Below are positions 24,408-58,530 of a stretch of 64,000 nt of DNA, piece after piece. Made by a program: the position numbers and the translations under genes. This stretch comes from Haliotis rufescens. Its lineage: Eukaryota. The notes under the pieces are model-generated. The model did no database searches. It saw only the letters and a program-made list of their open reading frames with translations, and was not told the DNA's origin. Within the stretch, counting starts at the first letter, position 1, and each line of letters starts with the position of its first letter. The stretch covers positions 37,572,001 to 37,636,000 of the forward strand of contig NW_025963890.1 in the NCBI RefSeq assembly GCF_023055435.1, in the 5' to 3' direction.

Positions 24408-24454
<47 letters not shown>

Positions 24455-34170: not shown

Positions 34171-35412
34171 ATGACATCCACTGCTACATCGTTACTGACG
34201 CATAAAAACCCGGGAAGGAGGCCTGACCCGCGCAAAAATACGAAAAGAAGGGTTTCCTTTGCTGAAAATGTTGCAAACTTCATCGTTACATTGAAAAGGC
34301 GAAGGGGCAGTGTAAAGGATTCGCTCGACGGTGACAACAAACAGACACAAATATGTTTCAAAGTCAATTTGTTTAATAAGTTTGGCGCAACTAGTGAACT
34401 AGTCCTGCACCATGACCGTGGAATATATTTATTTTATGAAAAAATAATAATCTAGAAATGCATACAAAAGCAAGTCTAGCCATCTCAAGCTAGCTCTATT
34501 CTGAAATCAGCATAGAGAATTGTTTTTATTTTTAGAGTCAAGAAGGATATTGTGTAATATAAGATTTCAGAGACTAAATGTTAGTCTACTAGTGAACCAA
34601 ACCTTGTTGATGCCAAATACGTCTCGTATGTTTACGACGGAGCCATATTAATCACCGATTTCTTGGATGGAAGGGTAGTTCAATATGAACGAAGTGGCTT
34701 ACCAAAGAGAACATTTTTGACAAGCGAGTATTCCGAGCCTTGTGCAGCAGTAATGACGCCAGAAGGTAACGTGGCCGTAACGCTGCGACGTCAACGTTGC
34801 GTGACGGTGTGGACAACAGATGGTCACTGTTTAGGAGAATTTGGGCAAGATCTACTGCAATGTCCAACTGGATTAGGAGTGGATACATCAGGCAGACTTT
34901 ACGTCAGTGATGAGGAGGAGAATGACGTATACGTGTTTCACAAAACAGGGAGGATTTCACACAGATTTTCGGATACCATGAAAACGACACTGTGTCAACC
35001 TCGATATGTGTGGTGCTCTCGCTCTGACCGTGTGTTAGTATCTGATTCTGGGAACCATTGTGTGAAGGTTTTCAACACTCAAGGAAAGCTTCTTTTCCAT
35101 TTTGGATCTTATGGAAATAAAGATGACCAGTTCAAATTCCCATACGGAGTGTGTGCAGACCAAGATGACAACATCATTGTTGCCGATCACTATAATGACC
35201 GAGTGGTTTTGTTTTCTCCTTGCGGTGAATTCCTACAGAATCTTGTCACCTCGGCCAAAGGCCTGAATAGGCCATGTGGTGTTGCAGTAAGATCATCACA
35301 CACCAGAAAACTCTACATCACACACGGGGACCTCATGTCGTTGGAGGTGGTTGTATTCAATATGGTCCCATTAGAGTATCACATCCAAGTAGATATGGAA
35401 CAAAATGTTTAA
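34171..35412 (+). pseudogene. NHL-repeat protein paralog 1, interrupted by a 189-bp insertion (34400-34588)
   Basis: ORFs 34171-34455 and 34663-35412 are in the same frame; removing the insert and one CTAGTGAAC copy restores FNKFGATSEPNLVDAKYV...; NHL motifs PTGLGVD, SDSGNHCVKVF, FKFPYGVCAD, VADHYNDRV; acceptor AG at 34159-34160. Confidence 0.8.
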
Positions 35413-36269
35413 AATTGAGTTGTTCCGAGCGAAGAATGAAACTACATTGTAGTTATCTAGACTTACCCGCTAGACTTGCATGGGCTGAACTGAATATATG
35501 TCTTCCAGGGTCTGTATGACAAACTAAAGTACTGTCGGAAATGCTAGAAAACTGCTTTTTGCCTGTTATAAAAGAATATAATTTTTCACAGACTGTTGTT
35601 ATTGAAATATCGAATAACTACCGATCGACCTACCTGTGGTTTGAAGTATTTCAGTCACAAGGAGTCCTATCGACAAGTTTACAGGAGACAAATTCGAACG
35701 AAAACAGGAAATTTACTTTTATTCTAAGTGCAATGGTGGCAGTCTGAAACGGACTATAGAAATATGCGAACGTGACTCCGTTATAATGATAATAATGTAG
35801 TCTTAATAAAACATCTCATCCACACACAAAACTCATTTTGAGAAAATTCTAGATGCACATCTACTAAAATGACAAAATGATGCTGCGTTTGTTTTGTTAA
35901 CATTGCTCCCATGATGCATGTTACATTACACTTCCAAAGCCATAACCATGGTCCACGATATGGAGTCTGTACTGGGAAATGTATGCAAGTTCTTTACACT
36001 TTAGAGAGATAGAGGGAAACCATTTATCAATTTAGAATGGGTGAATTACCGAACTGCCCAAGCTATTGGATTTTCAATTCATACCATCAAGTCTACGGAA
36101 TGATAAATAAAACAAACCAGGTATAGGGGTCTTCTCAAAAACAAAACTGGGACGTAAAAGGATATAAGACAGCTTTGATACATGGTGATTACGCGTATAG
36201 GGTACAAGCTTTTTTAGCAGAAGGTAACCCTGACTTGAAGAATTTGGGAGGAATTAAAGATACAATTAA

Positions 36270-36950
36270 TGTTAACTGCACTAACTATTGCTCTCCAAGA
36301 GATGGGATTTCGATACACTGCGCGTGGCGATGACCGAGCACTTTTCAGGGGAAAATATTCTATCCTGTCTGTGAGGTCACATGATCTTCGAACCATTCAT
36401 AACTATCACAGTAAAGGCGTCCAGATAATTTACCATATGATAACCACTGATATGGGGCTTATTGATGGATGTGTGCTGGTTTTCGAGGCGAAAAAAGAAA
36501 ACTGGTGATTTTCATAAGGAGGTGATGTGTTCTTAGACTGGTTGGAACTTCAGCTATTGCCCATTTTAAACAACGTCTGTGTCATTGTCATGGATTACGC
36601 CAGTTAATATAACGTCCGGGAATCAGATACTGTCACCCAAACCATGAGTTGTCTGAAGGCGACCATACAGGAATACATGACATTGTCAACTTCAGACCAT
36701 ATAAAACGAAAGTTCAACTTATGGAGAAAATTCGGCTGAATAAGAACCCTGTAAAGTACAGGACATTTGTGCTGGCGGCACAATACGGTGACGTTTTCTC
36801 ACGTACGCCAGTTAGACATTGTGAGCTCAACCCTGTTGTGCCCATCTTGGCTAAGAGTAAAGGATTCGTGGCAAGACATAACACGACATTCAAAAGTACA
36901 GATTCATATACGTCATCAGCGGAGATAAAGGCTACCTCAAGAAATCATCT
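36270..36950 (+). mobile_element. Degenerate IS630-Tc1-mariner-type transposase remnant
   Basis: Pieces MGFRY, IIYH, GCVLVFEAKK, GDFH, SVIVMDYAS, RTPVRHCELNP, FVARHNTTFK in shifting frames. Confidence 0.6.
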
Positions 36951-37560
36951 GTAGAACAACAAATACCTCTGGATTCCAAAATCGCATCCTTCCAATACTC
37001 ATCCCGTTTCATAGCTCTTAACTATTCCCATCATGTTTCCAAGCAAATATAATGCAGTACATATCCTAAGTTGCTACCCCATCAACGCACATGGCAATTA
37101 AGTACAATAACAGCAATGTTTTGAGACCACCCCCAACTCGGTGACATTAACACCTGTGAGATTGCAAAGGAAAGGTGTGAGGTCATCACCTCGGTAAACC
37201 ACAGGTACCACAGGTAAAAACCTCAGGTTATAGGCCATTTCATACATGCATGACAACACACGAATATTTTCTAAGTTGATCATCATTTTTCTTGTAAAAG
37301 TACATTTTAAGGGTAATCACAGTGTCACAGTGTCAGTCAGGCTAGATAAGGACAATTTGCGATATTTTGATATATGATCTTTTAATAGTTCCATGACTCG
37401 TATTTATTAAATGAAGTCAGAAAAGCAGTTTCCGACTGTACTTTAGCACTAACTCTCCATACTCGTTGGTTTCACCCAAATTGTAAAGGCCTAACGCCTG
37501 CGACCATTCGGTCTTTCCTTCAACTTTAAGCTGAAGGATCGCGTGTGATTCTTAAAAGTG

Positions 37561-37827
37561 CGGGGCACGGGTGACCCAGTCGTCTAAGACGCGGCGATTC
37601 GCTTTGCAGAGTTGCGTCCCTTGAGCACGCCAGAAACCTATAATTGTGGGTTCGTATCCCGGTTCGCCAGATTATGTTTCTAGATTTGTCAGCATCATAC
37701 CCGTGCTCGTGGGTTTCACCGAAGTGGTAAACGTCTGAGACCTGCATCACTTCGGGCTTTCCTCCCACATTAAGCTGACACGCCGTGATATAACAGTAAT
37801 ACTGTTTAAAGCGGCGTTACTCACTCA
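37561..37827 (+). mobile_element. SINE family B (tRNA-like head, V-domain-like core); other copies 42440-42700 (-), 53891-54175 (+), 3' end 63048-63136
   Basis: TSD CTTAAAAGTG; head ggggcacgggtg.cccagtcgtctaag...gggttcg.atccc; core gtgggtttcaccg...cttcgggctttcctcccac; tail shared with family A. Confidence 0.85.
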
Positions 37828-38062
37828 CTTAAAAGTGACTGAAGCGGACGTATAGTATTCACATATTCAAATTGCTTTCTTTAGAAAAATAACTGCAAGT
37901 TGTTTCCAAGGGCTTCTTCATTTACATAGTCACTATGCCCGCATTCCAGGCGTTAACGATCACATATTCTACTGATTTAATTCACGTCTTGAACTGTGAG
38001 AAATCATTTATGTAAACCGCATCCCCTGCCAACACGAAAAACGTGTATGTGTATAATGCACA

Positions 38063-38410
38063 TACGAGGGACGTTCAATAATTTTGCAACTTCAATATAA
38101 GACCAAGTCGCAGAATATCTTTTGCACTTTTATATTTCCATATAATCTTCATTCACCTCAATACACTTGTTCCATTTTTTCTTCAAGCTTTTAATACCAC
38201 TTTTATAGAAATCCGCAGATTGGCCTGTAACCACGCCTCTTTGGCAGCCTTTATGTCCTCGTCATCCTTGAAGCGTCTTCCACGTAGGGCAGATTTAATT
38301 TGCCGGAACAGGGAATAGTCACTGGGCTGTACAGTTAAATGCCCCACCCTACAGCTCAGACCTAGCTCCCAGTGACTATTTCCTGTTCCGGCAAATGTAA
38401 TCCGCGCGAG
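38063..38410 (-). mobile_element. Mariner transposase 3' remnant with an internal inversion
   Basis: TACGAGGG.. end; minus strand PSDYSLFRQIKSALRGRRFKDDEDIKAAKEAWL; plus strand 38347-38405 repeats PYSSDLAPSDYFLFRQ in inverted orientation. Confidence 0.75.
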
Positions 38411-38624
38411 ACTCCTCAGGGTGCAGTCTGTATACCATGACGGCGGATTTTTAGAAAAGCTTTGTGATGGTCAATAGAAATAAAGAATACGTGACTGCCG
38501 ATTGTATAATAAAATGTGATAGTTACTGATGAATCCAGTTCCAATATAAATGGCTTCCAATGTTGGCCGAGATAAATTCTGTGATCGAAGCGAGCTAGGT
38601 GTTTTTAATATCCGATGATACAAA

Positions 38625-39760
38625 TACGAGGAGTATATGCAACAAATGTACGCTATATGCAGAATATACGCAATATCTGTACATTGACTATTTGGTAATA
38701 AATGAACGCTAAAGTTATGCAACAAATGTATATGAACAATTGTACGCTGAGTATATGCAGAGACCATCTATTATATGGTCTTTGGTATATGCAACAAATG
38801 TACGCTGAGTATAAATACAAATGGCTGAGTATATGAACAAATGTATGCAGAGAATATGAACAAACATACACTAAGTATATGAACAAATGCACACTGAGCA
38901 TGTGAACAAATGAATCCTGAGTATATGAACGAATGTGCTCTGAGTATATGAACAAACATACGCGAGCATATTAAGAAAGGTACACTGAGTATATGAACAA
39001 ATGCACACTGAGCATATGAAAAAGATGTACGCTGAGTATATGAACATGTGCGCTGGGTATATGAAAAATTATACGCTGAGTATATGAACAAACATACACT
39101 GAGCATTTGAACGAATGTACGCAGAGTATGTGAAGAAAGGTACGCAGAGTATATGAAAAAGGTACACTGAGTATATGCAACAAATGTATGCAGATTATAT
39201 AAACAAATGTACGCAGAGTGTATGAACAAATGTACGCTATGCATATGAACAAATGTACGCAGAGTATATGAACAAATGTACGCTGTGTATATGAAAAAAT
39301 GTACGCTATGCATATGAACAAATGTACGCAGAGTAAATGAACAAATGTACGCTGTGTATATGAAAAAATGTACGCAGAGTATATGAACAAATGTACGCTG
39401 TGTATATGAAAATACGTACGCAAAGAACACGAACAAATGTACGCAGAATATATGAACAAATGTACAGTGAGTATATGAACAGATGTACGCAGAGTATATG
39501 AAGAAAGGTATGCAGAGTATACGAACAAATGTACGCTGTGTATATGAACAAATGTACGCAGAGTATATGAACAAATGTACGCAGAGTATATGAAGAAAGG
39601 TACACTGAATATAAGCAACACGCTGTGCAAATGAACAAATGTATGCAGAGCATATGAACACATGTACATGTACACTTAGTATATGCAACAAATAACCGAG
39701 TATTTAAACAAATGTACGCTTTGTCTATAAACAAGTGTACGCTGAGTATAAGCAACACAT
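38625..39760. repeat. 23-bp minisatellite (ATGAACAAATGTACGCAGAGTAT), roughly 45 degenerate units
   Basis: Visible periodicity; accounts for the overlapping low-complexity ORFs at 38471-39758. Confidence 0.95.
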
Positions 39761-40399
39761 ATATAGCAAGTGATGTAGTATTGACATTTGGGATAATGGT
39801 AAATTAATGCTGGCATGCAAAGTATGTAATTACGCCTGTAATAGTGGTTAGATGTGACGATGTACTTAGCCTTTCCAGAGACAATTGTCATCACTTAATA
39901 AGAACAAAGACAAGCGCATATTTAACGCACAATTAACGACATTATTATGGGTACGATACATTTAGAACTGTTCATGTATGTGCGGCGGTAAAGGTGTTTT
40001 ACAGGCTGAAATAGTTCCACAGGGATACTTGTGTTATTGAACATTACTGACAAGATGTAAACAGTGGGATATTATAATAGCAGAATGATACAAAATTAAC
40101 CCTGTCAGTGCGCACAGAGATATACAATACGGGTATGAGCTTCCTCTGTAAACATTTAATTTATTGCACCTTACTTCACCTTCTCGCTGTGCTGAGTTGC
40201 CTCCCTTGGACTATCTGAATCATTTGATTGTTGGTTTGAATCCTATATTCTATGATACCCGAGAGGGGGCATTGCTTTATTGAATTTGCAGTCGCGATAT
40301 TGCGATAACACGATACGAGAACGCGATAACCAATTTGTCAACAGAGGGAGCCTTTTTCCAGACTTGAAGGATATAGCCGAATGTAAGATTGGGGGATAA

Positions 40400-40545
40400 C
40401 ACGAGACGAAAAAAGCGATAACACGAGACGAGAAAGAGACAGTACGAGATGAGAAAGCGATAGTACGAGACGAGAAAGCGATAGTACGAGACGAGAAAGC
40501 GATTGCACAAGACGAGAAAGCGATTGTACCAGAAGAGAAAGCGAC
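40400..40545. repeat. 21-bp tandem repeat (ACGAGACGAGAAAGCGATAGT), about 7 units
   Basis: Visible periodicity. Confidence 0.9.
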
Positions 40546-43500
40546 ATGCCACGATATACATGTAGCTACTATACAATGCCGCGTTGAATCACTGTCTCTG
40601 GCTGAGTGACGACTTTCAGTGAGGTTTTTGTAGTACGGCTACTTCGGCGATGCAAAACAAGTTACCAAATGTAATACATATACAACAGGATTACATGTTT
40701 ATGATCAAATTAAACGAAAAATGTACTACAATAAAGTTAAATTCGGGGAGTAACACAGTAAATGGACAATGTAAAAAGTTTTTTTTGATGGAAACAAATC
40801 CTGTCTTTTGTAATTCTTTTTGTTTTTAAGAAAGTTTATGACTGTATCTATTTACTCAACTATTTACGTTACTCTGTACAACCTGTATTCTTGAAATAAA
40901 GAATAAAAAGAATGAATAAATTAATATTTCGGCGTCTTGCAAAAAATCCGGCACACACTCGCATCGAATAAATATTCACAATTTCGAATCACAGATCTAG
41001 AGGGGGTCAGACTTCAGAAAATGATCAACTTTTCATTTTGAGATGAGAAGCCTGCCATCAATTCATTAAACCTAAAGGCAATACAATGAAAATTGTGAAA
41101 TCCATTATGGGTGTTTAAACGTAAACAAATCATAAACTTTCGATTCCCAACAAGGGTACATTGTGTGAAGCCCATTTCTGGTGTCCCCCGCCTTGGAATA
41201 AATGCTAAAAGCGGCGTTAAACCATACTCACTTACTCCTCCCAAAAGGCCGAGATGAACTAGAGAGTGCCCTTTTCTTATTTTAGTGGCACCGTGCTGTT
41301 TCAGGAACACTTTTACTGGATGCTCTCTTAAGCGGCTGTTTGTATTTGTATTTGTTTGTTGGTATGATGTTTAAAGCCGCACGAGCAATGGCCCAGCTAC
41401 ATGACGGCGATATGACTTCCATCTTTTTAGGTATTTTGATATGACGCGGCCGTCTATCAAAACCCCATCTTCTGCTCTCCGGGCAGACGCTCTTACACTA
41501 GACCACGGAGGCGGTCGCCCTGGATGCGACACAGAGGTTACCTTGCCTCATCATTTCACATTCGATCGTCACGTCGAAGACCCGGGTTCGATTCCCGACA
41601 TGGGTACAATGTGTGAAGCCCATTTCTGGTGTCCCCTGCCGTTATATTGCTGGAATATTGCTAAAAGCGGCGTAAAACCATACTCACTCACTCACTCATC
41701 ATTTCACATTTGCTTTGCTCATCCCAGCTCTGTCCTAGATATGGGGCTGTCTCCGGAGGGTGGAAGGTTGGTGGTTTCATCCCCTGGATGCGTCATACTA
41801 ATAGACGTTGAAAGATGATACATGTTGTTAACTTGCCTTGTGTTAAAACAAGGTCGGCTCAAAGTGTACTGTGTCTGAGGGGAATAACCTCGCACGCGAC
41901 GTTAAACCCCATTTCACTTCACCTCTGCATACTGGCTAAACATCAGTACCGATGTTTTCAGCATTTAATAGCAACAACTATTTAATGGATAGAGGAATAG
42001 GTCGCCAGTACCAAATGCGAGTGTAGAAGCCGACCAAGTAGGAGTAGCTATAGCCTAGTGGATAAAGCATTCGTTCGACACGAAGACCTGGGTTCGATTT
42101 CCGACGTGGGTACAACGTGAGAAACCAAATTATGATGCCCCCTGGTGTGATATTGGTTACACCTTGCTAAAAGCTGCGTAAATCCATACCTACTCACTCA
42201 CTCATACAATCACTCACGTCAACCTGTCACCTTCTTTGTCTCGTGTCTGTGTAGGCTGAGGTGATCTACATGTCTCAGATCTAATAAACAACGACTATGC
42301 CGCAGTTTGCAACCTAACACTGTGCTTCCATCGAGACGCATCACCGTGTAAAGATAGGTCGCGCGGTAGATGTTCCGAAAATAAACTGCGATTAAAGTAA
42401 CAGTGAGTTTTGAACAATGTTTTAGGTACATTTGGACTGAGAGAGTGAGTTGGGTTTATCGCCGCTTTGAACAGTATTCCAGTTATAATGGAAACATGTG
42501 ATGTGGGAGGAAAGCCCGTTTTAGACGTTTCACACTTTGTTGAAATCCACGAGCACGGGTATGGTGCTGACATACCCAGAAACATAATCGGGGCGAACTT
42601 GGATTCGACCCCATGATCATAAGTTTCTGGCGTGCCTTAGGGGCGCAACTCTGCAAAGCGAATTGCGGCGCCTTAGACGTACTGGGCCACCCGTGCCCCC
42701 AGTTATATTAGAAGGAAATCCCGATGCAAGTCGTCGCAAGGGTGTATGCTGTTAGTTTGTTTGTGTGTCTGTTATTTCATGCTTCACTCAGCAATACTCC
42801 AGATATATCACGGTGGTCTTTTAATGATCGAGTCTGGTCCAGACAATTCAGTGATTGACATAATTAGCATAGCAGTTGGGATACGATGGCATGCATCAAC
42901 CACGTCGGCGAGCCTGACTACCAGTACCCGTTAGTCGCCTTCTACGACAGTTTTTTTTAGACATATCAAGGGTTGGGCGAAGTTGTATTCGAACTCCCGA
43001 TTCACGGATCCTGTCACAACGAAATTACGTAACTGTTCATACCCAGTTGTAGCTTGCTGACCCACTGAGTCACTTTTCAGTTACGAGGCAAAATTAACAT
43101 ACACTTGTCATGCAATTTATTTGAAAGCAACGTTCTCTGTCGTCCTCTATTAGACTGTGAATGAAAGTATACACCCATGGTTGATGAAGGCTAAAACTGA
43201 AACAAATACAAAATGTTTTTTGATGGTGATGTAAATCATACGGGTATCAAAGTTGTGTTTTGGACTTCGCAGTGTTTCGCCGACTGTTTACAGCCGAGAG
43301 ACGGGTTGACAACGTTGGTCAGATCCAATTTCAAGTGTTTACTTTCTCGTAGTTTACTCTAATGTTATAATACACTCATGTCCTTCTCGTCGTCATACAG
43401 GTGGAATATAATTCGGTACTGATTTCGCAACACAGGAACGTGTTCATTGCATCTTATGGTACGATACATATCACTATAATGAATGTATCACGATACGTGT

Positions 43501-44094: not shown

Positions 44095-47000
44095 CTACAC
44101 AAAATGTTTGACGTTTATGCTGAGCTCGGAGTCCATAGATATCAGCTTAAATACGATCACTTCCGAAGCTCGAAGTTCTCCATGCGTAATATACAACTTC
44201 CGGTTATGCGCACATCTGACGGAAACGCCACACGGACTTCTCAGCCCAGCTGTAGGTGTGACAAGGTCTTGCATATACTGTCCCGTTGCAGAAAACATGA
44301 CCACTCTGTCGTTGTGGTGGTCGGCGACGATGATGTTGTCGTGTTGGTCAACACACACACCGTACGGAAACCTAAACTGGCCGTTCGCTTTCCCATAGGA
44401 TCCAAACTTGAACATGAAGTTGCCATTACAAGCAAACACTTTGACACAGTGATTGCCCGAGTCGGCTACGACGATACGACCAGAATGAGAGCAGCAAACA
44501 TATCGAGGCTGTTTGAAGGCAGGTTCGTGAAAATCTGACAGTTTGAATAAGACGGTCCCCGTCTGATCGAATACAAATACATCGCTCAGCTGTTCATCTG
44601 CTACAAATACCCTCCCTGTTTTATCAACTGCCAGACCAGCAGGGCATCGCAGCAAACCGCTGCCGAAGACTTCCATCGAGGTGCCGTCATTTGTCCACAA
44701 CGCTACACAGTGCTGACGTCGCAACGTCACTGCGACGTGTCCGTCGGGTGTCATCGTCGCACCCCAAGGCTCTGAGCTCTCTTTGGTCATGAAAGTGCGC
44801 TTTGCTTTACCACTTCTTTCATAAAGAACGACTTTGCTGTCCAGGAGATCGGTCACTAACACTTCTCCTTTGTAAACGTGGGCGACTGATTTGGCGTCCT
44901 TGATCCCAGGCGCTGTATTCCGCTTTGCTCCGAATTTATTAAACAATACTGCGCGGAACTTCTCGGGAAAATGACTCTCCGATTCCGAGTCCGAGTCTGA
45001 ATCATCATCCGATTGAAAATTCTCGGTTGAAATGCGTCTCTCCTTAACCAACTGTTTCTCTAAGCTGTCTGTGGGCAAGCTACTTCTGGTCGATGCCCTT
45101 CTCTCCGTCGACAAGCTTCCCATTGTCCTTGGCCGTCTCTCTGTCGAAAAGCTTCCCTCCTTCAGTGATCTTCTTTTCGTCGACAACCGCCCCTCCCTTG
45201 GCGACTGGGTTTCCGTCGACATCTTGTCGTCAGCAGAAGAAAGGGGCGTGTCGGGTTCATCGAACACAATGTCATTTGAGAAGGAAACTCTCTTTGGGTG
45301 AGATTTGGGGCTGTTTTCTCTGGAGGAGTAGTTGGATGACGTCACTGACGACAAAGAATTTAGGGATGAGAGCGACGTCATCTCAATATTGCACGTTAGC
45401 GGAATATGAAATATTCCATTCTTTGATGTATTATCGTCCACTGTTGATAATGAATCTGCAAAACAATAACACAAAGTCAGGCTGATGCATTTGTCTACGG
45501 AAAGGCGAAGATGGGTGTAACCTAGTGCTTAAAGCGTTGGCTCGTGACGCTTAAGACCTGTGATCGAATCCCTAAATAGGTACAGAGGATCCCCTGCTGT
45601 GATTTAGGGGGAATATTGCCCCCCAAAAGTGCGAACGCTGCAGCAATGAATAATTCTAGAAGCCTGACAATGTGGCAGTATGTGTGTGTCGACATGGTTC
45701 TAATGCCGACGTTATACAATAAGAGAACCCGCAAGGGACAGAGAGAGAATGCTGCTAAATGATATTCCATTTGATATTCCAGGGAGTGTGAATATATTTT
45801 GATCTCTATTACATGACAAACAATTTAGTTCCAAAAATCAAGGAGCCGAACAATTAGATTTTTTTAAGAAAACATTTTTATCATGACATCCATCATGTAC
45901 ATTTGTATTTCTTTTCTAAAAAACGTTTTTCCAGTCTTTTTTCTGCAACACAGGACAGAACATGAAGTGATTGGTCCTTGAACGCGGCGGAAAACAATTT
46001 TCACTCATTGCGTGTAGGCTCATGTATGGCTATCCTCTGTTGTGTAATATCATGTAATACTGTGTTTCCTTAGACTGGTCGTTCCGGTTTTACAGGATTA
46101 ATTATTTCAGGTGACTGCAGGAATCCCTTTCAACAACACAAATCGTCATGACGAAGTTGGATATTTGTTACAATGAGTGAAAAACCCTCAAGCATTAACT
46201 TACACAATACAGTGACTCGCTCGGTATAAATAGCCCACTGACGTGCACACCAAATGATTAAATAACACCCTCAAGCATCATCTCCTTCGGTAGGCGGGGG
46301 TTCAGGGTGGGGTCGGTTGGGGTGGTGACGGACAGAGTGGGATGGGTTTTGGGACGTAAACATCAGGTTTCAAACCTAAACCCTCGGCATTCAACAAGAG
46401 CATCCCCTTTGCAGTTGGATACGTGCATTACTACGGTGATACAGGGGGAAATAAACGTTCAGAAGCTCAAAAGTGAATTCGTATAATGTCGGAACGTGTC
46501 CGGCTTTAATTTGTGTGTGCAGAGTTACGCAAATATGTTTTACATTTCCGTTCACATACGTTTTTAGATATTACAATTCAAATTTCTAAGCCCATAGTCA
46601 TGATACGCAGTCCTTTAGTCTTCTATTTATAATAATGAGGTATGGAAACAATTATGAGGCGATGAATATTCATTATAGTGTTTGTAGTTTACACATTGTT
46701 GTGCCTTATACGTGAAATTTATAGTGTTTCATATATTGATGTCCACATCTTCATCCTGCGTGGTAAATACTCGAATATTTAGTCAAGCGTGAATTAGCGT
46801 GACTATAATGTACCTCACGTTTTGATAAACGCAATTTATCCCCCCCAAAAAGTGAAGAAACTAATATTTTTGTGCACAAAAAAGTATCAACAATTCATTG
46901 CGTAAAGGGACGACAGATTGCGATGATAAACCTATGCTGCTATCACATTTAATAATCTAATATGTACGACAAGACACCAAACATCGCTTTTCTACCAATA

Positions 47001-47121
47001 GAATCGTTCGCCCATAATACACAAAATAAAAATAAACAATACCTTTAGATGAACCTCCACTTTCCTCTAGATGGGATAATCGACGTTGTTTGGTAGAGAC
47101 AGCTCTCCGAAGAAACTCCAT
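44095..47121 (-). CDS. NHL-repeat protein paralog 2 (~479 aa) with Ser/Arg-rich disordered N-terminus and KRVSF motif
   Basis: Exon 47121-47043 (MEFLRRAVSTKQRRLSHLEESGGSSK, donor AAG|GTATTG) splices in phase 1 to exon 45455-44095 (acceptor TTTTGCAG); NHL motifs CPAGLAVD, QPRYV, ADSGNHCVKVF, FRFPYGVCVD, VADHHNDRV. Confidence 0.88.
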
Positions 47122-47729
47122 GTTGCCAGTTGATGGAAGCTCGTCACTAATGTCTACGTGGTTGTGATAGCAGTTAGACACCTCAATCAACGAAAGTTGA
47201 TATGGCATCTGGCGTTATGGAGATGTTTCAGCTGCACCCTGTATCATCAGGTTCCGCGGCCTACTTTTACTTTCAGTACCCAGTCAAATAGTAGGGTACG
47301 GGTGAGTGCACTGAAGGTCACAGAGATAAGCGCGGGGATTGGCGTGCTGCGAGAAGCACAGCTTTGGATCATGTGACAATCATGGTGTTGTCTCCATCGT
47401 GAAGAGGAACAATGCTGAACATGACTGGAGTTAGCGTCCGCCTCAGAGGCATGTCAGGACACTGGTGGCTAGTCGTGTACGTCGTTTGTGCGGAGTTGCG
47501 TCCCCTTTTTCGCCAGGATCTGTAGGTTATTGATCCTTGGTTGTCAGAACCGGAGCTCGTTGGTTAACGTTTAAGATCGGCATCATATTGTCCTTACCTT
47601 CCTCGCCACCATGCATGACTGAAAGAAAAGCAAAAACCAGCTTATGACTCACGCATTCTCCGCGTAAAAGTAAAAGTACTGTATATACAAGTATCACGTG
47701 TTCCAGAGATTGCACGTGTATCACACGGC

Positions 47730-47740
47730 CCTTTAAATAG
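47730..47740 (-). promoter_or_regulatory. Candidate TATA box for NHL paralog 2
   Basis: CCTATTTAAAGG on - strand ~600 bp upstream of the ATG, followed by a GT-AG candidate UTR intron (47597-47520). Confidence 0.35.
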
Positions 47741-48840: not shown

Positions 48841-48940
48841 TCCCGTTCCACAAAGCGATCTTAGCGCTACGATTATCGTAGGCCTATGTTAAAATATGGG
48901 AATTCCGCTCACGTCAGCGCTAAGCGTTTGTGGAACGGGG
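48841..48940. mobile_element. ~100-bp palindromic MITE nested in a family D SINE; partial second copy ~49174-49210
   Basis: cccgttccacaaagcgatcttagcgct ... agcgctaagcgtttgtggaacggg. Confidence 0.75.
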
Positions 48941-49904
48941 CCCCGAACCAGACAATCAAGTGACTGACATCATGAGCATCGATCTACGCAATTGGGATAC
49001 GATGACATGCATTAACAAAGTCAGCGAGTCTGACGACCCGATCCCGTTAGTCGCCTCTTACGGCAAGTCGCTTCTTGTATGTGGCAAGTGTGGGTTGCTG
49101 GAGACCTATTCTCTACCCGGATGAACACCTCTCTCTGTAAGTCATACGCATGTCTACATTAGCATCCAAAGACCCTTTTTCCACAAAGCGATCTTAGCAC
49201 TACGATTAAAGTATTGGAGTTATTATCTTCACTCACCCGGTTACTCACATTCAATCACACATCAGTACTGCCGCCCTTCCATCCGCATTTCTACCAACTC
49301 ACCCACTCAAACAAAACACAAAACAAGCACACACAAATAAACACACATGCACAAACCACACACACTGACACACACGCGGACACGCATACACACACACATA
49401 CACACAAGAACACACATGCACAAACACACACACACTTCCCTTCATCCGACCAAACCACTCACTCACTAACTCACTGGGAGACCCTTAGTTGTCTTGACTC
49501 TCATGGGATGGACAAGCATTTAGTTGTTGGTGATCGGTTTAAGGGATTCAGAACAGGAGCATTATGTACCACAATCCTGAATACAGTCATTTTAGTTTTC
49601 ATCGATCATTATATGTTGACAGATATCATATGTCCGAGAAGCACTGTTTCAGTTATCTCCTGAGATGACCACATCAATTGCAGATGCTGATGGAAAATTA
49701 CTTGGCTGTTGACCTCGGGTAATCCGATTGGTTCCAGTCGGAAGACCACTTGACCCCTGGTATCAGTCTTTTGTTGAAGGTCTCACGGTTAGCCAGAGGC
49801 TGGTTTTCAGGTACCTTAGATGTAGCTGTTTCAGACCTACCCTCCGATAACATTCAGTATGCACTAGTATTACAGATTCGGTTGACCAGTAACGCATATC
49901 TAAA

Positions 49905-50830
49905 GTAGTTATAACATATTCAGTTGACCAATAACTGTTGCACATATCCTCAGACAGTACACCATACACATAGTTATAACATATTCAGTTGACCAGTAAC
50001 ATCTATCCTCATATACCATACACATATTTACAACATATTCAGTCGTCCAGTAACATCTATCCTCATATACCATACACATAGTTATAACATATTCAGTTGA
50101 CCAGTAACATCTCTCCTCATATACCATACACATAGTTATAACATATTCAGTCGTCCTGTAACATCTATCCTCATATACCATACACATAGTTATAACATAT
50201 TCAGTCGTCCAGTAACATCTATACACATAGTTATAACATATTCAGTCGTCCAGTAACATCTATCCTCATATACCATACACATAGTTATAACATATTCAGT
50301 CGTCCAGTAACATCTATCCTCATATACCATACACATAGTTATAACATATTCAGTTGACCAGTAACATCTATCCTCATATACCATACACATAGTTATAACA
50401 TATTCAGTCGTCCAGTAACATCTATCCTCATATACCATACACATAGTTATAACATATTCAGTCGTCCAGTAACATCTATCCTCATATACCATACACATAG
50501 TTATAACGTATTCAGTCGTCCAGTAACATCTATCCTCATATACCATACACATAGTTATAACATATTCAGTCGTCCAGTAACATCTATACACATAGTTATA
50601 ACATATTCAGTCGTCCAGTAACATCTATCCTCATATATCATACACATAGTTATAACATATTCAGTCGTCCTGTAACATCTATACACATAGTTATAACATA
50701 CTCAGCTGACCAGTAACTGTTACACATATCCTCAGACAGTTGACACTACACGTAGTTATTACATATTAAGTAGACCAGTAACACTTATCCTCACATTATA
50801 GCCAATATACATAGTTATTACATTTACAGT
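49905..50830. repeat. 54-bp minisatellite with interspersed 41-bp deletion variants
   Basis: Unit acacatagttataacatattcagtcgtccagtaacatctatcctcatataccat; produces the artefactual MCMVYEDRCYWTTEYVIT ORFs. Confidence 0.95.
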
Positions 50831-52049
50831 TGATGATCCTTCTGTTAGTTTTTCAGTCAGCGTGTGAAGACATACATGTTTGTGACTCAGCCAGAGCAAC
50901 CAGCATGTCCAGTTAACGATATTTTAGTGTAAAACCTGTCCATCAACCTTTCCCAGAATGTCTGGGGATAGATTCCGGCCCCAACTTGACTCTAACGTGT
51001 CGAGGTGTTTTGTCCTGGCCCGCACTGAAGCAGAGGCAATAAAAAATGGGAAGCCTCTATAGGCAAATGACGAAATATGTCACTTGACTCTAAGCAGCAG
51101 TATGGTGAGATGGCAATGTGAATGTCAAACCCGCCAGCTCCCTGGGTAGCTGAGCATGCAACGAATGGACATTTCTCCGTTGAGCGGGTGATGACGCCAT
51201 GGCCATGCTCAGAGTGGAGTGTAGCTCTTTATAAGCGGTCCATGATGTTATATTAATGCCATACACTTTACGTTGAAGGAAAATGGGAAATGGGACTCAC
51301 AACATGATCAGATCAGAAGTGACCACGTGAAATCAGCCATTGACACACGTGTTCAACGTAAAACAATACGGTCGAAGTAAATGTGACGATGTGTTGAAAT
51401 ATATGTGTCAACTGAGCATTGAGTAGTCACCGCTACCAGGTACGTATATTTGTTGACGACACAGGAATTTAATGATGGTTTCATTCGTTTTGCAATAAGT
51501 TTGCTTATTTGCTTGGTGTTTACTTGGTGTTCCGTAATATTGGTGTGAGGTTTCAAATTACAACTAAGAGGTATCAAATCACTCATAACCAACCTAAAAT
51601 TTAGACCATTCTGTCATGATCACATGACAAAAGTACGCTTTGTGATGTGTCTTTAGTTGATGACAATAATTGGTTGTTAATTAAGAAATTATCAATAAAA
51701 GCATGTAAACAAATCAGCCATTGTATATATGTCAAATACTTACTTTCGTCAAATAAAAAAACAGATACTTGTGAAAATTAATCGAGTGTGTGAGTATGGT
51801 TTTACGCCGCTTTTAGCAATATTCCAGAAATATCACGGCGGGGGACACCAGAAATGGGCTTCACACATTGTACCCATATCGGAAATCGAACCCGGGTCTT
51901 CGGCGTGGAAAAATAATCAACACCCCTCAAGAAAATGAAGCGATCACAGACGGACTGCTTCTACATTAAGTATCGCTCTCACAAGGACGGCACCAAATGC
52001 TGATTTATGGCAAACTGAGAGGCCATATGCCAACATTTCAACCTATTTA

Positions 52050-52850
52050 CAAGGTATGCGTGTTTCTTCTAACTAACAATGCATGATGTATGGTCAATAC
52101 AATAGGTTATAAAATTATATTCATTTTCTGCAACATTAAGGCAACATATTGGACAGGCTTTGTTAGACTTTTGAAATATGCCTTTATACATATTTAAATC
52201 ATAATAACCTGCACTGAGCTGAGCTAACGAGACTCGCATATTTATTTTTGAAACAAATACCAAAAATTCTTCGAGTATTAATTGCTGCTTGAATGACAGT
52301 CCATAGCGTTCTGACGCCACGAATATTCCGGATATTACGCCATTGAAACAAACGCAAATACAGTAGAAAATGTATGCTATGGTCGGATTTACGTTAGTGT
52401 CCCGATATGAACTAACTTTGGGCATTAATTTCATATGAAGCTATACCTTTGAAACATATGAACATCGTGTATTGTCGTATGCACAAGCACCATTGTCATG
52501 AATGCTATGACCGGATTTGCAGACATTTCCAAGCATAAATTCAATAGTTGATACCGCAGTAAATACTTGATCATAGAGTATTTCCTATGCATTTCTTTTT
52601 ATTGTAATAGGTGCTGGAATGTCCTTTCTCAGTTTACTCGGTTTGAAATATGGACATTTCCTTAGGTGGGGAAACATGTTTTTTAATTTTCAAATGTTTT
52701 CATGCCTAAGAAAGCTATGTATCATTCCGGATATCAAGAAGGGTATCGTATTTGAATAGTATTTAAATGCTCATGTTACCGATACTAAACCAAGATAATC
52801 ATATGTTGTATACAAAGACAAATGAAAAATTAATTAATGCACAATGATGA
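52050..52850 (-). mobile_element. Highly degenerate LINE ORF2 3' fragment
   Basis: YDYLGL (~52790) and C-terminal CPICCLNVAENEYNFITYC zinc-knuckle-like motif. Confidence 0.45.
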
Positions 52851-54481
52851 AATACAGAATTTATAAATACAAGATATGATACAAGATGGCTGGAGTTAAG
52901 ATTCTACTGTTCTTGTAAGAGATAATACCTTCGAGAGGTATTTTGATAGATTAATAATTTCTTTCATCACGGCTCATATGACCTCATTAACCTTATATCG
53001 CTGAGGGTCTGTCTAAACAAAACACTACTATGCATTAGGTCATCAGTTTAATCACTTCATCGGGTTCTTCAGACAATTTAGAAGTGAGTTGGAGTCACAT
53101 GTTATTATTAACATTGAATAGTTACACTTTGTTGGGGTATTCAATGTCTATTATTGCTCTCGTCAAGTCTATTGGATTTTTGAAAACCATTGAGTGGGCC
53201 TTTTTGAAAAGTATTGTACTGTTATATTGTTTTAGGTTTTAATTTCTAATTGTCATCTGTTCGTGTGTTGCACAACTTCATTACATTGATACAAGTTACA
53301 ATTAGCCAGATGTTACACATGTGTGCATTATTCATCCGGTAGACTTCTTGTATATGCTAGTTTGCTTGAAGACCGAATTAACCACTGCATTTTTGCAACA
53401 TAGCATAGAACGTCACCAGTTGAGATGGCGGAAATGCATACCCATGCAAGTCAGCCTATATCTTTGTTTACTGGATAAACACTTTGACCAATATTCAGTG
53501 ACCCAACTGATTACGATAATGCAGATGCATTGCTTCGAGGAAAATGTCCTTAGATCTACACTCCATTGTTTTGTTATTGTATAGGATGCCTCTTCTTGAT
53601 GCATAACGTGTGATACAATGCTTCTTAAGAGGATGTGGTAAGATGCAGATGAAAATTATTCTTTATTGGTAAATTTGTCCGTTACATACCCAAACCAATA
53701 CCTCATTTTCTAAGCATGGTTGAATTTGTTAAATGCTTGCACTGTGAACATATGAACTTATAAGAGAACTGATGGAAAAGGTGTCAGCATCTATGAAATT
53801 CTTTTTATATGAACCTAAAATATTTCAGATGGTGGAAATCATTTTGTTTAAGCACCGGTAATATGAGCATGTGGAAACTATTCGCAGTCTGGGGGTCACG
53901 GGTGGCCCAGTCGTTTAAGGCGCCGCGATTTGCTGTGCAGAGTTGCGTCCCTTGGGCACGCCCGAAACCTGTGATTGTAGGTTCGAATCCCTTTTCGCCC
54001 CGATTATGTTTCTAGGGTTTGTCAGCACGATACCCGTGCTCGTGGGTTTCACCGAAGTGGTAAACGTCTGAGGCCTGCATCACTTCGGGCTTTCCTCCCT
54101 CATTAAGCTGACACGCCGCGATATGGCTGCAATACTGTTAAAGACGGCGTTAAACCCAACTCACTCACTCACTCACTATTCGGAATCTTCTCATACGACA
54201 CGATGCATAACCCACTAAGGCATTTGTACATTTGAAAGTTTACATAAATAACAAATGTTTCCCTGATCAAGGAAATGATCTTTTTTCAAAGCTTTGTAAA
54301 TTTTCAAAACAGTCAGACATTTTAGACAGTTCAATACAAATATAAGCCACAAAGCCCATTGTGCACTCCGACTATATCATGAGCATGTGTTTATGAATGA
54401 CTCTCAAATAGTGATGATACCAGGTGTTCGCAACAAGGTGATGTTGTAAAATTGATACTATCCATGTTCGTATAATAAATG

Positions 54482-54643
54482 GGACGGTGGGGTTAGCCTA
54501 GTGGTTAAAGCGTTCACACGTCACGCCGAAGATCCGGGTTCGATTCCCCACATAGGTACATTGTGTGAAGCCCATTTCTGGTGTCCCCCGTCGTGATATT
54601 GCTGGAATATTGCTAAAAGTGACGTTAAACCATACTCACTCAC
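54482..54643 (+). mobile_element. SINE family A, full length; further copies ~30762-30915(-), 41139-41240, 41560-41698, 42040-42205, 43741-43897, 48260-48418, 51784-51908(-), 59109-59277(-), 61875-62034(-)
   Basis: tRNA-like A/B boxes, body gggtacaatgtgtgaagcccatttctggtgtcccc, (ACTC)n tail; TSDs TCGTATAATAAATG here, TGGCTCCTGAG at 59098/59278, TTACGA at ~61869/62036. Confidence 0.95.
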
Positions 54644-56238
54644 TCGTATAATAAATGAATGTGTTGGGCATTATTTGATCATGTTAATTTGACAGCGACT
54701 TTGACAAGAAATGATAGTGAATCATGAAAGACATTTAAATTGTGTATTCCTATTGAATTTGTTACAGGTATGTCTTTAGTAACACTTATTATTTACACTC
54801 AGTTCTCCACAGGAATACACAACGATTTTGAAATTGTAGACGTACTGTTACCCCGTTACTTATGGGATAACAAGACGTATTCTTATCCTTAGAAGGGAGA
54901 ATTCCGTGAGTCAGTGATCAGTCAAAGAGATGTTCCATTATTTATTGTGAGGCTCAATGTGTTATACATAATATATTAATAAAACAATAATCTTAAATAC
55001 ACATTTTATTTTGATGGGGCTATTAGCGTTTCATATGGTAGAATTTGTATACATGATAACACTTATAATACTTCATTCTTTCAACACAACATTGGATAAT
55101 AATCGTTCAGGAACCATTCATACAATTACTTAAATCACATCTCACTTATACCTCAAAGGTTGTCATATAAATCCTTTATAAATGATGTTTGCCGTTGAAC
55201 CTAATATGTGTATTGGTTCTCTATCAGCATATAATTAATCATACATGAGTGCAATAAATACACAACTATTCATGACAATAGATCTAATTCATTTTCATAT
55301 TCAATAATGAGATATTATGCACGACAATATTCATACAGAGATTATTTAGAAATACACAAAATACATAATATTTGCCACTTTCTATTCATCATAAATAATA
55401 CATTTCTATCTTCATATTATTTGACATAAATAATAGAGTTTGAGCTTACCTTAAATTAGAAGGGAGAATTCCGTGAGTCAGTGATCAGTCAAAGAGATGT
55501 TCCAGTATTTATTGTGAGGTTCAACGTGTTGATATGAAATCACGGACCACTTTTTATAGTCTAAAAAATACTGGAAACACCACTGATCAACGTCGGAATT
55601 CTCTTGATTGGCCAAAACATACACTGTGTCCTTTAATTACAATTTTGGTTGGTTGAAAGATTAGGTAGATTAGGTAATTTACTCAAATGAGTTCTTATAA
55701 AGGACCGTGACCGTGACACGATGGTAATTGCGGTAACTACGTCAGATTAAGTAAACTTTGTTTTTACAGCTGCTGTCTGGATGTGTCTAATGAGTTTTTA
55801 GAGGAGGTGTCACGTGACCGTGACAATGTGGTAACTGCGTTAATTACATAGTCTGAATGTCTATACAATGGTCATTAAGGTAATTTAAAGGTAGTTTTAA
55901 AAGAATTCAATAGATTGGATTTTAAGAAGACACTGGCGATAGCAAATGGTTGATTATGGTTAATTAGGTTGTACCAATACAACGTCCAAAATGTTGTTAC
56001 ATTTTGTTGAGGTTAGCTATATATTCTGCCTCCGATAAAATGCAGTAGTATAACACTTAAAACAACACAATCCAGAAATGATTATCTCAGGAGTAAAATA
56101 ACTGACAACGTATTTTCATTTACATAATAATTCTAATGCAATATCAGTACTCCTTTTCAAGGAGTTTGTGGGTTTTCACATATGATCACATAACTAACAG
56201 TTCAACCAAACTGTTACCAAACTGTTCGTTAAGTCAGT

Positions 56239-58530
56239 TCAAGCAAACTGTTCAATACTAACGCTAAGTTCAGATTTATGTGAAATCAGTTTGAAAACTA
56301 TCACTTCGGATGCACGATATTCCCCATGGGTGATGTACAACGTCCGGTTATGCGCACACCGAACTGACACTCCTTGGGGTCTTATCATACCAGGTCGGTG
56401 AGAGATCAATGTTTGCATGAAATGTCCCTCGGATGAGAACATGACTATGCGGTCATTGTAGTGGTCAGCGACAATGATGTGCTCCTCATGGTCAACGCAA
56501 ACGCCATACGGGAACTTCAGCTTTCCGTCACCGGATCCATACGAACCTAGCTGGAAGAGGAACTCGCCATCCATATTAAATACCTTCACACTGTGGTTTC
56601 CCGAATCAGACACGATTATGCGACCGGAGGCAGACACACAGACATATCTGGGTTGCTTGAAGGTTGTCTGTTTGAGATCGCTTAATTTGAAAAGGAATCG
56701 TCCTGAATTGTCGTACAGGAAAACATCGTGGGCACGTTCATCGGTAACTATAATCCGCCTTTGTTTGTCCACAGCAATCCCAGCGGGGCATTTCAGTTCG
56801 GAGTGTCCAAACATCTTCGTGGAAGAAGCGTCTTTAGGCCATAATGCAAAGCAACCGTCACGTCGTAACGTCACAAGGACGTGTCCATCTGGCGTCATCA
56901 CCGCTGCCCACGGCTCGGAGTGTTCCTTACCCATGAACGTCTGGCGTACACGGCCACTGCGGTCATACAACACGACCTTGCTGTCAAGCATGTCTGTCAC
57001 CAGAACTGACTCACTGTACACGTGGATGACGGACGTTGCACTTTTAAGCCCTGGGATTCCCCTTTGCTTTCCGCCAAATGTGTTGAACAAAATAGCTCGG
57101 AATTTTCCATTGAACTCTTCTCCTTGATTGACATTGCCTTGGACTAAAGGTAGTGGCCGATCGTAACCCTGTTTGGAAAAGCTCACATCAGAATCTGTGT
57201 GGCTCTTTTGCTTCGGGACATCCACCTTACAGACGTCGACTTTGTCATCATCCTGTCCATGTTCCACGTGCTTTTCGGGCAATTTTATTATTTTTAAACT
57301 TGACTTCTTTTTATTTGATTTGCTGTCACCTGATGGTTCCATCAGGTTGTATCGTATTTTGACGTCATCAAATAGAGCCGTCATCTGCTTCTCAAGGTCA
57401 TCCTCATTGTACGCCGGTTTCTCAACTTTCTCTTCAACTTTCACCGCAGGCTTCTTCCGTTTGAAACGTTTTTTAACCCCTTGAGGTTTTGGCTTTGCGT
57501 GTGTCTCAAGTTCCATGTTACTGTTGTACACAGAAATCTTTCCTTTGTGGCGACTTTTAGACTTATCACTAGCAAATGAGGACTTCTTCTGTTTGTAAAA
57601 CGTTTTGACACTAGAAAGAAGAGACGTAGCATTATCCGACTTCTGCTTGTCTACGTCCTTCACACTAGGACTGGGTGACTCTTGGTGCTTCTCACTGCCT
57701 TCTGCAAACTCTTTCATCTTCTCACATTCTTCATATTCAAGTGCCTCCTGGCTTTCTTCAGTTGAGCTAATTTGTTCATCGTCGGTCTCGACGCTGTTTG
57801 GTGCTGACGTGTCCACCTCTCCTTCTTCATCATCACTGGTGGAATCTTCCTTCTCAAGATTGTTCTCCTGTTGGTCACTATGATCACCTGGGTCTTCCGA
57901 TTCAGTTAGTGATATGTCGATGAGAGTTCCTTCAAGCGGTTCTTGGTTAATATCGGCTGTATTTTCCTTGTCATCATTGTCACTGTCCATGTAGTTCTCT
58001 TCAGTGGACGATGTGTTGAAGAAAGATCCTTCAAACTCGACAGGTTCTTCGTCACCATCGGTTTCATTTTCCATATCTTCCTTGTCGTGGTGAAAAAATG
58101 CCCTCAACAAGCCATGTTCTTTATCGCAGTGGAACAATGACTTGTCCTTGTCATGCTGTTGTTCACACTCGCGCAATGGAAGCCTTTCAAAAGCATAACT
58201 CTTTCGGCGCCCTTTGTCATGATGAAACAATGACTTCAGCCTACTATGATATTTGTCATGGTGGTCCAATGACACTGGATTGAAATCGTCGGAATATTGG
58301 CCGCAGACGGGAAGATGAGTCGCTTCAAGACTTTTGCGACGCGATTTGTCACCATGAAACAACGACCCCAAGGTGTCACTATTTTTGTCAGGATGGAAAA
58401 ACGAACTCAGCTTCCCATGGCGCTTCTCACAGAGAACCGATGATTCTGATTCTGAGTCGTCGTGATCTTTGCCACAATCACAGAGAGGAACCTTTTCAAG
58501 ACTGTCATTTGCATGATTCAAAAAGTTCAT
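56239..58530 (-). CDS. NHL-repeat protein paralog 3 (>=763 aa) with His-rich repeats and long acidic and basic disordered tracts
   Basis: Single long ORF; C-terminal ~290 aa align with paralogs 1 and 2 (FRAILFNTFG, SEPWAAVMTPDGHV, CPAGIAVD, FKQPRYV, SDSGNHSVKVF, KFPYGVCVD, VADHYNDR, ITHGEYRASEV); true 5' end uncertain. Confidence 0.9.
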   Translation of the reverse strand: MNFLNHANDSLEKVPLCDCGKDHDDSESESSVLCEKRHGKLSSFFHPDKNSDTLGSLFHGDKSRRKSLEATHLPVCGQYSDDFNPVSLDHHDKYHSRLKSLFHHDKGRRKSYAFERLPLRECEQQHDKDKSLFHCDKEHGLLRAFFHHDKEDMENETDGDEEPVEFEGSFFNTSSTEENYMDSDNDDKENTADINQEPLEGTLIDISLTESEDPGDHSDQQENNLEKEDSTSDDEEGEVDTSAPNSVETDDEQISSTEESQEALEYEECEKMKEFAEGSEKHQESPSPSVKDVDKQKSDNATSLLSSVKTFYKQKKSSFASDKSKSRHKGKISVYNSNMELETHAKPKPQGVKKRFKRKKPAVKVEEKVEKPAYNEDDLEKQMTALFDDVKIRYNLMEPSGDSKSNKKKSSLKIIKLPEKHVEHGQDDDKVDVCKVDVPKQKSHTDSDVSFSKQGYDRPLPLVQGNVNQGEEFNGKFRAILFNTFGGKQRGIPGLKSATSVIHVYSESVLVTDMLDSKVVLYDRSGRVRQTFMGKEHSEPWAAVMTPDGHVLVTLRRDGCFALWPKDASSTKMFGHSELKCPAGIAVDKQRRIIVTDERAHDVFLYDNSGRFLFKLSDLKQTTFKQPRYVCVSASGRIIVSDSGNHSVKVFNMDGEFLFQLGSYGSGDGKLKFPYGVCVDHEEHIIVADHYNDRIVMFSSEGHFMQTLISHRPGMIRPQGVSVRCAHNRTLYITHGEYRASEVIVFKLISHKSELSVSIEQFA

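What the first reader, a model, noticed from the sequence alone, without database searches (positions are those of the whole stretch)
34171..58530. Cluster of three RING-less NHL beta-propeller genes with swapped disordered N-termini and RVxF motifs
Seen: three paralogs share a ~290-aa NHL propeller encoded in one exon, including unusual shared motifs (F.A.LFNKFG, SEP...MTP.G.V.VTLRR, LYITHG....EV.VF). None shows the RING/B-box/coiled-coil of TRIM-NHL proteins (TRIM2/3/32/71, Brat, LIN-41). Their N-termini are unrelated: ~60 aa basic, ~190 aa Ser/Arg-rich, ~470 aa His-repeat/acidic. Paralogs 1 and 2 contain KRRVSF and KRVSF. Known: [KR]-x0-1-V-x-F is the canonical PP1-docking motif, and NHL domains can bind RNA or protein. 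Inference: a lineage-specific family of NHL adaptors that may recruit PP1 rather than ubiquitinate, with many RRxS phosphosites and hydrophobic C-termini (EQNV, KHFV, EQFA).
Basis: partly seen in the sequence, partly recalled or inferred. Interest (0 to 1): 0.7.

Follow-up and report, generated by a model that had tools for sequence, protein, structure and literature searches.

The report
Mollusc phosphatase-docking NHL propeller family
These three abalone genes belong to a mollusc-wide family of propeller-shaped proteins that lack the ubiquitin-ligase part of their TRIM-NHL relatives, and many members carry a short motif that likely recruits the phosphatase PP1; one of the three is broken in this genome by a young jumping-DNA insert.

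Summary
The three NHL genes are real and RING-less. The genome is abalone: paralog 2 equals a protein named Haliotis rufescens. They belong to a family found in gastropods, bivalves and a chiton, set apart from TRIM2/3, Brat and other TRIM-NHL rows (support 100). The strict PP1-docking motif occurs outside the propeller in 11 of 46 cluster representatives, against 0.3-0.5 in shuffles, 0 of 46 reversed and 0 of 33 TRIM-NHL controls. PKA-site bias does not explain it. But most members lack it, including paralog 3 and a fourth paralog, and no binding was tested. Corrections: paralog 1 is interrupted here by a 189-bp transposon with a 9-bp target duplication and in-frame stops, absent in 4 of 4 sequencing runs laid. 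Its upstream exon is non-coding. Paralog 2 has a missed 55-codon first exon, shared with the fourth paralog. N-termini look diverged, not swapped. Best reading: an undescribed family of likely PP1-targeting adaptors.

The parts
32449..32637 (+). Paralog 1 non-coding first exon (5' end is where the contig begins; true start may lie upstream); in-frame TAA at 32633-32635, donor GTAAGG at 32638
   Evidence: contigs of runs X1 and X4 join this stretch to 34159-34161; frame check; single copy in the genome
34161..35412 (+). Paralog 1 coding exon; ATG at 34171, stop at 35410-35412; 347 aa when the insert is absent
   Evidence: unnamed Logan protein P0477, 347 aa
34243..34260 (+). KRRVSF, strict RVxF motif of paralog 1
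   Evidence: sequence; kept in P0477; V codon changed silently in run X3
34400..34588 (.). 189-bp non-autonomous DNA transposon, TAG...CTA ends, no long terminal inverted repeat; breaks paralog 1 (first in-frame stop at 34453)
   Evidence: 40 of 40 scored genome matches at 95-100% identity, 1856 candidates; 10 of 10 loci examined have 189 bp and a perfect 9-bp duplication; skipped in 4 of 4 runs
34391..34399 (.). left copy of the 9-bp target-site duplication (right copy 34589-34597)
43..43 (.). placeholder removed: no feature here
   Evidence: not a feature; ignore
47043..47208 (-).
   Evidence: tblastn of P0001; GT donor and AG acceptor; in-frame stop upstream; shuffle test
44095..45455 (-). 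Paralog 2 second exon: Ser/Arg-rich disordered region plus six-bladed NHL propeller (44098-44964); whole protein 508 aa
45280..45294 (-). KRVSF, strict RVxF motif of paralog 2
   Evidence: KRVSF or KKVSF in 4 of 4 Haliotis orthologs seen
56239..58530 (-). Paralog 3, 763 aa in one reading frame: 474-aa acidic disordered N-terminus without RVxF, then the propeller (56242-57108)
   Evidence: in-frame stop 11 codons upstream

Best explanation
The genes are a tandem abalone expansion of a mollusc-wide family of NHL six-bladed propellers that have no RING or B-box, and the RVxF-bearing members (paralogs 1, 2 and the distant fifth) likely act as targeting subunits of protein phosphatase 1. Shown: domain content, gene structures, family tree, motif enrichment, broken allele of paralog 1. 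Inferred mechanism: the disordered N-terminus docks on the PP1 RVxF groove. The conserved aromatic and basic top face of the propeller would bind a substrate or anchor. The free C-terminal Val/Ile/Leu would add a PDZ-type or strand contact. Phosphorylation of the Ser/Thr inside RVSF, itself a basic-kinase site, would release PP1. Members without the motif (paralogs 3 and 4) would bind the same propeller ligand without delivering PP1, or use a degenerate site.
For: No RING, B-box or filamin family among 76 aligned members or 17 further proteins; the 74 best rows of the profile search carry none. Family is one side of a branch with support 100, 54 against 22 rows. Strict [KR][KR][VI]psi[FW] (consensus from PMC12723162, passages): 11 of 46 representatives, shuffle means 0.34-0.48, 0 of 1000 shuffles as high under three schemes; reversed motif 0 of 46; three permuted motifs 0-1 of 46. 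Among 71 basic-basic-x-S/T sites, 9 have both V/I and F/W against 1.7 expected, Fisher p 4e-8. TRIM-NHL controls: 0 of 33 in 12,363 aa against 16 of 84 in 12,349 aa. Orthologs vary x but keep V and F: KKVKF/KKVTF/KKVSF and KQVTF/KTVTF/KKVSF. An Ostrea isoform, not in the count, has RRVRF in an isoform-specific N-terminus. The motif lies in a predicted disordered part (pLDDT under 50). C-terminal V/I/L in 36 of 46 against 3 of 27 controls.
Against: 35 of 46 representatives lack the strict motif and 30 of 46 the relaxed one; even among N-termini over 120 aa only 8 of 24 have the strict form. Paralogs 3 and 4, Patella, Gigantopelta, Solemya and the scallop cluster lack it. A downstream hydrophobic pair is not enriched: 7 of 16 against a background of 0.375, p 0.39. 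Representatives are related, so 11 is not 11 independent events. Relaxed motifs occur in 7 of 33 controls. The controls are largely folded domains, not matched disordered regions. Paralog 1 seems dispensable: broken here, a one-base insertion in one contig of run X15, and only 219-aa database models in three species.
Confidence: 0.6

Rival explanations
1. The proteins are RING-less RNA-binding translational regulators, working like Brat, and the RVxF-like words are kinase sites or incidental.
For: Nearest folds are TRIM2, Thin, TRIM3, TRIM71 and Brat NHL domains. The top-face loops keep basic and aromatic residues: R373 99%, R/K302 85%, K/R417 98%, K/R484 92%, W286 86%, Y420 86%, Y436 91%. NHL domains evolve different RNA-binding surfaces (PMC5908797, passages).
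Against: Of 12 zebrafish LIN41 RNA-contact side chains that I mapped by blade order, only the R707 equivalent is kept; R564, R581 and R611 map to D/N, M and E. The motif is enriched beyond generic kinase sites, and some copies have no Ser/Thr (RKVRF, KKVKF, KQVRF). RNA binding and PP1 docking do not exclude each other.
Confidence: 0.2
2. They are non-catalytic decoys or scaffolds derived from TRIM-NHL ligases, which shield or hold the ligases' substrates; PP1 docking is a side feature of a few members.
For: The nearest outside rows carry RING, B-box or filamin domains (P0026, P0057, L006, L008, L009). Most members lack RVxF. The C-terminal hydrophobic residue is better conserved than RVxF.
Against: The propeller is only about 25-35% identical to any RING-bearing relative and sits on a long, well-supported branch, so shared substrates are doubtful. 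It does not explain RVxF in chiton, bivalve and gastropod members.
Confidence: 0.15
3. The RING-less form is an artefact of incomplete gene models; full transcripts add TRIM domains.
For: Many Logan and ENA members have short, probably incomplete N-termini. Protein searches had length windows (235-749, 419-1336, 130-651 aa).
Against: In-frame stops lie just upstream of all three start codons, for paralog 1 on the spliced exon. Database models of paralog 2 in four species (503-508 aa) and paralog 3 in three species (751-769 aa) start at the same place.
Confidence: 0.04

Closest known systems
TRIM-NHL proteins (TRIM2/TRIM3, Drosophila Thin, TRIM71/LIN-41, Brat)
   Same: C-terminal six-bladed NHL propeller; best PDB matches by sequence (TRIM3, E 3.5e-51) and fold (TRIM2, TM 0.88 of target). 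Databases name the genes 'TRIM2/3-like' or 'RING finger protein nhl-1-like'.
   Different: No RING, B-box or filamin; disordered N-terminus instead; own branch in the tree; LIN41 RNA pocket not kept; RVxF and C-terminal V/I/L enriched.
Neurabin/spinophilin PP1 targeting subunits
   Same: Proposed logic: an RVxF in a disordered region next to a folded domain that recruits the substrate (bioRxiv 10.1101/2024.09.23.614477, passages).
   Different: No homology; an NHL propeller in place of PDZ; the further phi-phi, R and W motifs are not shown (phi-phi test negative); binding untested.
Mollusc RING-NHL genes of the same genome (L006, L008, L009)
   Same: Intron-poor NHL genes among the nearer outside rows.
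   Different: They keep a RING domain and have no strict RVxF.
AcademH or MuDR-type DNA transposons (for the 189-bp insert)
   Same: 9-bp target duplication. MuDR/IS256 relatives make 4-10 bp duplications (PMC10045372, passages). AcademH making 9-10 bp duplications is recalled, not read: the paper was not held.
   Different: Non-coding, termini match over TAG and little more; autonomous partner not sought, so the superfamily is not assigned.

Membership tests
TRIM-NHL | C-terminal six-bladed NHL propeller | tested here: met
   Pfam NHL in 76 of 76; model strands 222-495 at pLDDT 82-98; fold matches
TRIM-NHL | RING domain | tested here: not met
   0 of 76 and 0 of 17; upstream in-frame stops
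TRIM-NHL | B-box and coiled coil | tested here: not met
   no B-box hit; paralog 2 N-terminus modelled as disordered with one 8-residue helix; no separate coiled-coil predictor was run
TRIM-NHL | orthology to TRIM2/3, Brat or another named subfamily | tested here: not met
   the genome's own TRIM2/3 (L007) and Brat (L011) group with those subfamilies, the family stands apart with support 100 (quick tree, midpoint root)
LIN41/TRIM71 RNA-binding NHL | basic pocket R564, R581, R611, K628, Y658, R707, R752, R770 | tested here: not met
   only the R707 equivalent kept, mapped by blade order
PP1 regulatory (RVxF) proteins | [KR][KR][VI]psi[FW] in a disordered region, conserved in orthologs | tested here: met
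   met for paralogs 1 and 2, relaxed form for paralog 5; not for paralogs 3 and 4
PP1 regulatory (RVxF) proteins | accessory phi-phi motif 6-8 residues downstream | tested here: inconclusive
   present by eye in paralog 2 (IVF) but 7 of 16 overall, p 0.39
PP1 regulatory (RVxF) proteins | physical, motif-dependent binding to PP1 | not testable with these tools
   needs pull-down or ITC
Non-autonomous DNA transposon | fixed ends, target-site duplication, many dispersed copies, empty site | tested here: met
AcademH | autonomous element with Academ transposase and helicase (recalled) | not tested
   no autonomous partner was searched for

The most novel reading that the evidence does not exclude
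In the mollusc ancestor a TRIM-NHL ubiquitin ligase lost its ligase module and became a PP1-targeting subunit, so that one substrate-binding fold was switched from directing ubiquitin to directing dephosphorylation. The PP1 motif is then gained, lost, moved (N-terminus, propeller loop) or spliced in by isoform, giving paired PP1-recruiting and PP1-free versions.
Probability: 0.35. Interest if true: 0.7.

Novelty: new variant of a known kind. Interest (0 to 1): 0.5.

Why it matters
If true, molluscs have an unrecognised class of PP1 targeting subunits built on the NHL propeller, now hidden under wrong E3-ligase names in the databases. It would be a clear case of an adaptor fold changing the enzyme it serves. 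The test is cheap: peptide pull-down with an RAxA control. Separately, the insert shows a very young transposon family breaking a gene in this abalone assembly, and the database's 219-aa model of paralog 1 here misrepresents a 347-aa gene.

Tried and rejected
Splicing-out of the 189-bp insert as an intron: rejected. Only a weak phase-0 GT/AG pair would keep the frame, and DNA-sized runs skip the insert as well. Profile search of 50% representatives: swamped by giant multi-propeller proteins, only 4 of 150 rows were family members, so it says nothing on range outside molluscs. ESM Atlas: generic NHL clusters only. Complex prediction with PP1 was not run: the genome's STPPase_N matches are short exons, so no whole PP1 was at hand, and an RVxF peptide would tend to pass by likeness to solved structures. 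Phi-phi enrichment: negative. Homology of the paralog 1 and 2 N-termini, suggested by MTS...RVSF spacing: not significant, 138 of 500 shuffles. The run search listed no holder on record as RNA; tissue cannot be told. First tree had a long prokaryote-like row inside the family and was a quick tree; it was rebuilt without 35 of 111 rows (3 prokaryote-like, 32 near-duplicates). Literature: no paper held all terms for NHL repeat+mollusc+TRIM+expansion, NHL+RVxF+protein phosphatase 1+beta-propeller, TRIM+gene family+bivalve+NHL+RING+lineage-specific or NHL domain+RVxF; listings showed nothing on this family. Subscription journals are not covered. No supplements were read. Earlier findings of the scan: none. 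One row in 'parts' (43-43) is an empty placeholder and no feature.
Full report
What is there. Paralog 2 is 100% identical to a 508-aa protein named Haliotis rufescens 'RING finger protein nhl-1-like', so the window is abalone DNA. A genome search found a fourth paralog about 90 kb before the window (73% identical) and a distant fifth on another contig (36%) among 86 matches.

Paralog 1 is broken in this assembly. The frame from the ATG at 34171 stops at 34453. The cause is a 189-bp element at 34400-34588 between two copies of a 9-bp duplication. It has 1856 candidate matches in the genome, 40 scored at 95-100% identity, and 10 of 10 loci examined, this one included, have the same ends and their own perfect 9-bp duplication. 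Contigs of 4 of 4 public runs laid on the gene skip it, and an unnamed 347-aa protein is the uninterrupted form with KRRVSF. So the insert is young and not fixed among the animals sampled; whether the assembled animal carries it on both chromosomes is unknown. In run X3, 28 listed differences gave 9 silent and 6 replacing codons in the propeller, and 5 silent and 7 replacing in the N-terminus, which suggests purifying selection on the propeller. Against importance: one contig of run X15 has a one-base insertion at 34713, and database models in three species are only 219 aa. The cause is shown for this assembly alone.

No hidden TRIM domains. Contigs of 2 of 4 runs join 32449-32637 to the acceptor at 34161, and a TAA lies in frame just before the joint. 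Paralog 2 has a first coding exon at 47043-47208 with a GT-AG intron and an in-frame stop upstream. Paralog 3 is one 763-aa frame, and models in two other species start at the same place. Pfam found no RING, B-box or filamin in 76 aligned members or 17 further proteins; one Mytilus model is fused to EGF repeats, probably a gene-model merge.

The family. Three searches gave 92 family rows, taken by score rank. All 42 that carry an organism name are molluscs: gastropods, bivalves and the chiton Liolophura. No cephalopod or non-mollusc name appeared, but the word-based search and unnamed rows leave the range open. A quick maximum-likelihood tree of 76 propellers puts 54 family rows on one side of a branch with support 100, and the four cluster paralogs in a Haliotis group with support 98. 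The root is a midpoint, so descent from a RING-bearing ancestor is inferred, not shown. AlphaFold2 on a 76-row alignment gives a six-bladed propeller at 222-495, a disordered N-terminus and a loose C-terminal tail. The nearest solved folds are TRIM2, Thin and TRIM3.

Is RVxF more than chance? I dropped 9 of 92 rows (fragments or duplicate models), added paralog 1, clustered the 84 at 75% propeller identity into 46 groups and took the member with the longest non-propeller part. The consensus [KR][KR][VI]psi[FW] (PMC12723162, passages) occurs in 11 of 46, against 0.34-0.48 in whole, 20-residue and 10-residue shuffles; none of 1000 shuffles reached it. The reversed motif occurs in 0 of 46, permuted motifs in 0-1. 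A relaxed form occurs in 16 of 46 against about 3.8. Since RRVS is also a basic-kinase site (own knowledge), I tested all 71 basic-basic-x-S/T sites: 9 have both V/I and F/W against 1.7 expected. TRIM-NHL controls have 0 of 33 strict and 7 of 33 relaxed. The motif appears in chiton, bivalve and gastropod members, once inside a propeller loop insertion (Batillaria) and once in an isoform-specific N-terminus (Ostrea). Against: most members lack it, including paralogs 3 and 4; the accessory hydrophobic pair is not enriched; and related rows are not independent.

Other conserved features. The last residue is V, I or L in 36 of 46, against 3 of 27 controls. The top-face loops keep E284, W286, R373, Y374, Y420, H435, Y436 and K/R484. 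Mapped by blade order to the LIN41 RNA contacts (PMC5908797, passages), only R707 is kept, so LIN41-type stem-loop binding is unlikely; Brat-type or peptide binding is open. The three N-termini in the window do not align beyond shuffles, but paralog 2 and paralog 4 share their first exon, with a motif also in Patella and Gigantopelta. Fast divergence and exon loss explain this without swapping.

Mechanism and verdict. Most likely the RVxF members tether PP1 to whatever the propeller binds, as neurabin does with its PDZ domain (bioRxiv 10.1101/2024.09.23.614477, passages). Phosphorylation of the x-position Ser would switch docking off, as described for RVxF proteins. Every step after the motif statistics is inferred. 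The proteins are not TRIM-NHL members, since RING and B-box were tested and not met. Four targeted searches found no paper holding the terms. I rate it a new variant of a known kind, interest 0.5, confidence 0.6.

Noticed in passing
window 34400-34588 and loci L014-L022: Very young 189-bp transposon family with 9-bp duplications and almost no terminal inverted repeat; nine other copies are 100% identical. Possibly still active in abalone.
   Followed up: partly
window 34171-34452 (+): The broken allele would give a 94-aa peptide that keeps KRRVSF but lacks the propeller; the stop is in the last known exon, so it might escape decay. Untested.
   Followed up: no
window 58100-58420 (-), paralog 3 N-terminus: Five imperfect 'L-x-S-L-F-H-x-D-K' units, recognisable in the H. 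asinina ortholog too; function unknown.
   Followed up: no
window 47140-47169 (-); L026:6518-6715: First-exon motif (F/Y)xNxVD(I/L)xDE kept in paralogs 2 and 4, Patella and Gigantopelta; in H. rubra paralog 4 it is preceded by RHVCF, so it may be a degenerate PP1 site.
   Followed up: partly
family proteins P0017, P0124, P0256, P0268, P0272, P0279, P0280 and others: An N-x-x-F word followed by acidic residues recurs just before the propeller in 11 of 46 representatives; no control was run.
   Followed up: partly
proteins P0011, P0114-P0119, P0230-P0233, P0264: Caenogastropod members carry 45-165 aa disordered insertions in one propeller loop; some hold KRVSF or KKRVRI.
   Followed up: partly
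proteins P0017, P0263, P0272: The chiton branch has helical-looking N-terminal segments that resemble SAM or CARD domains by eye; Pfam gave no hit.
   Followed up: partly
window 11183-17270 and 23147-28757 (+): Two tandem genes with PAN and F5/8 type C (fucolectin-like) exons; Pfam confirmed for the second.
   Followed up: partly
G000 contigs C101, C79, C13, C586: Large clusters of 550-600 aa open frames with weak NHL similarity, dozens of copies; another expanded propeller family, not examined.
   Followed up: no
window 25163-26167 (-), 7407-7898 (+), 3424-3924 (+): Transposon relics: DDE_1 and DDE_3 transposase and retrotransposon gag fragments.
   Followed up: no
window 38785-39750 and 49961-50689: Minisatellite arrays of 23-bp and 54-bp units between the paralogs.
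   Followed up: no
L010: A TRIM-NHL-type gene of the same genome has a relaxed RVSF word in its linker.
   Followed up: no
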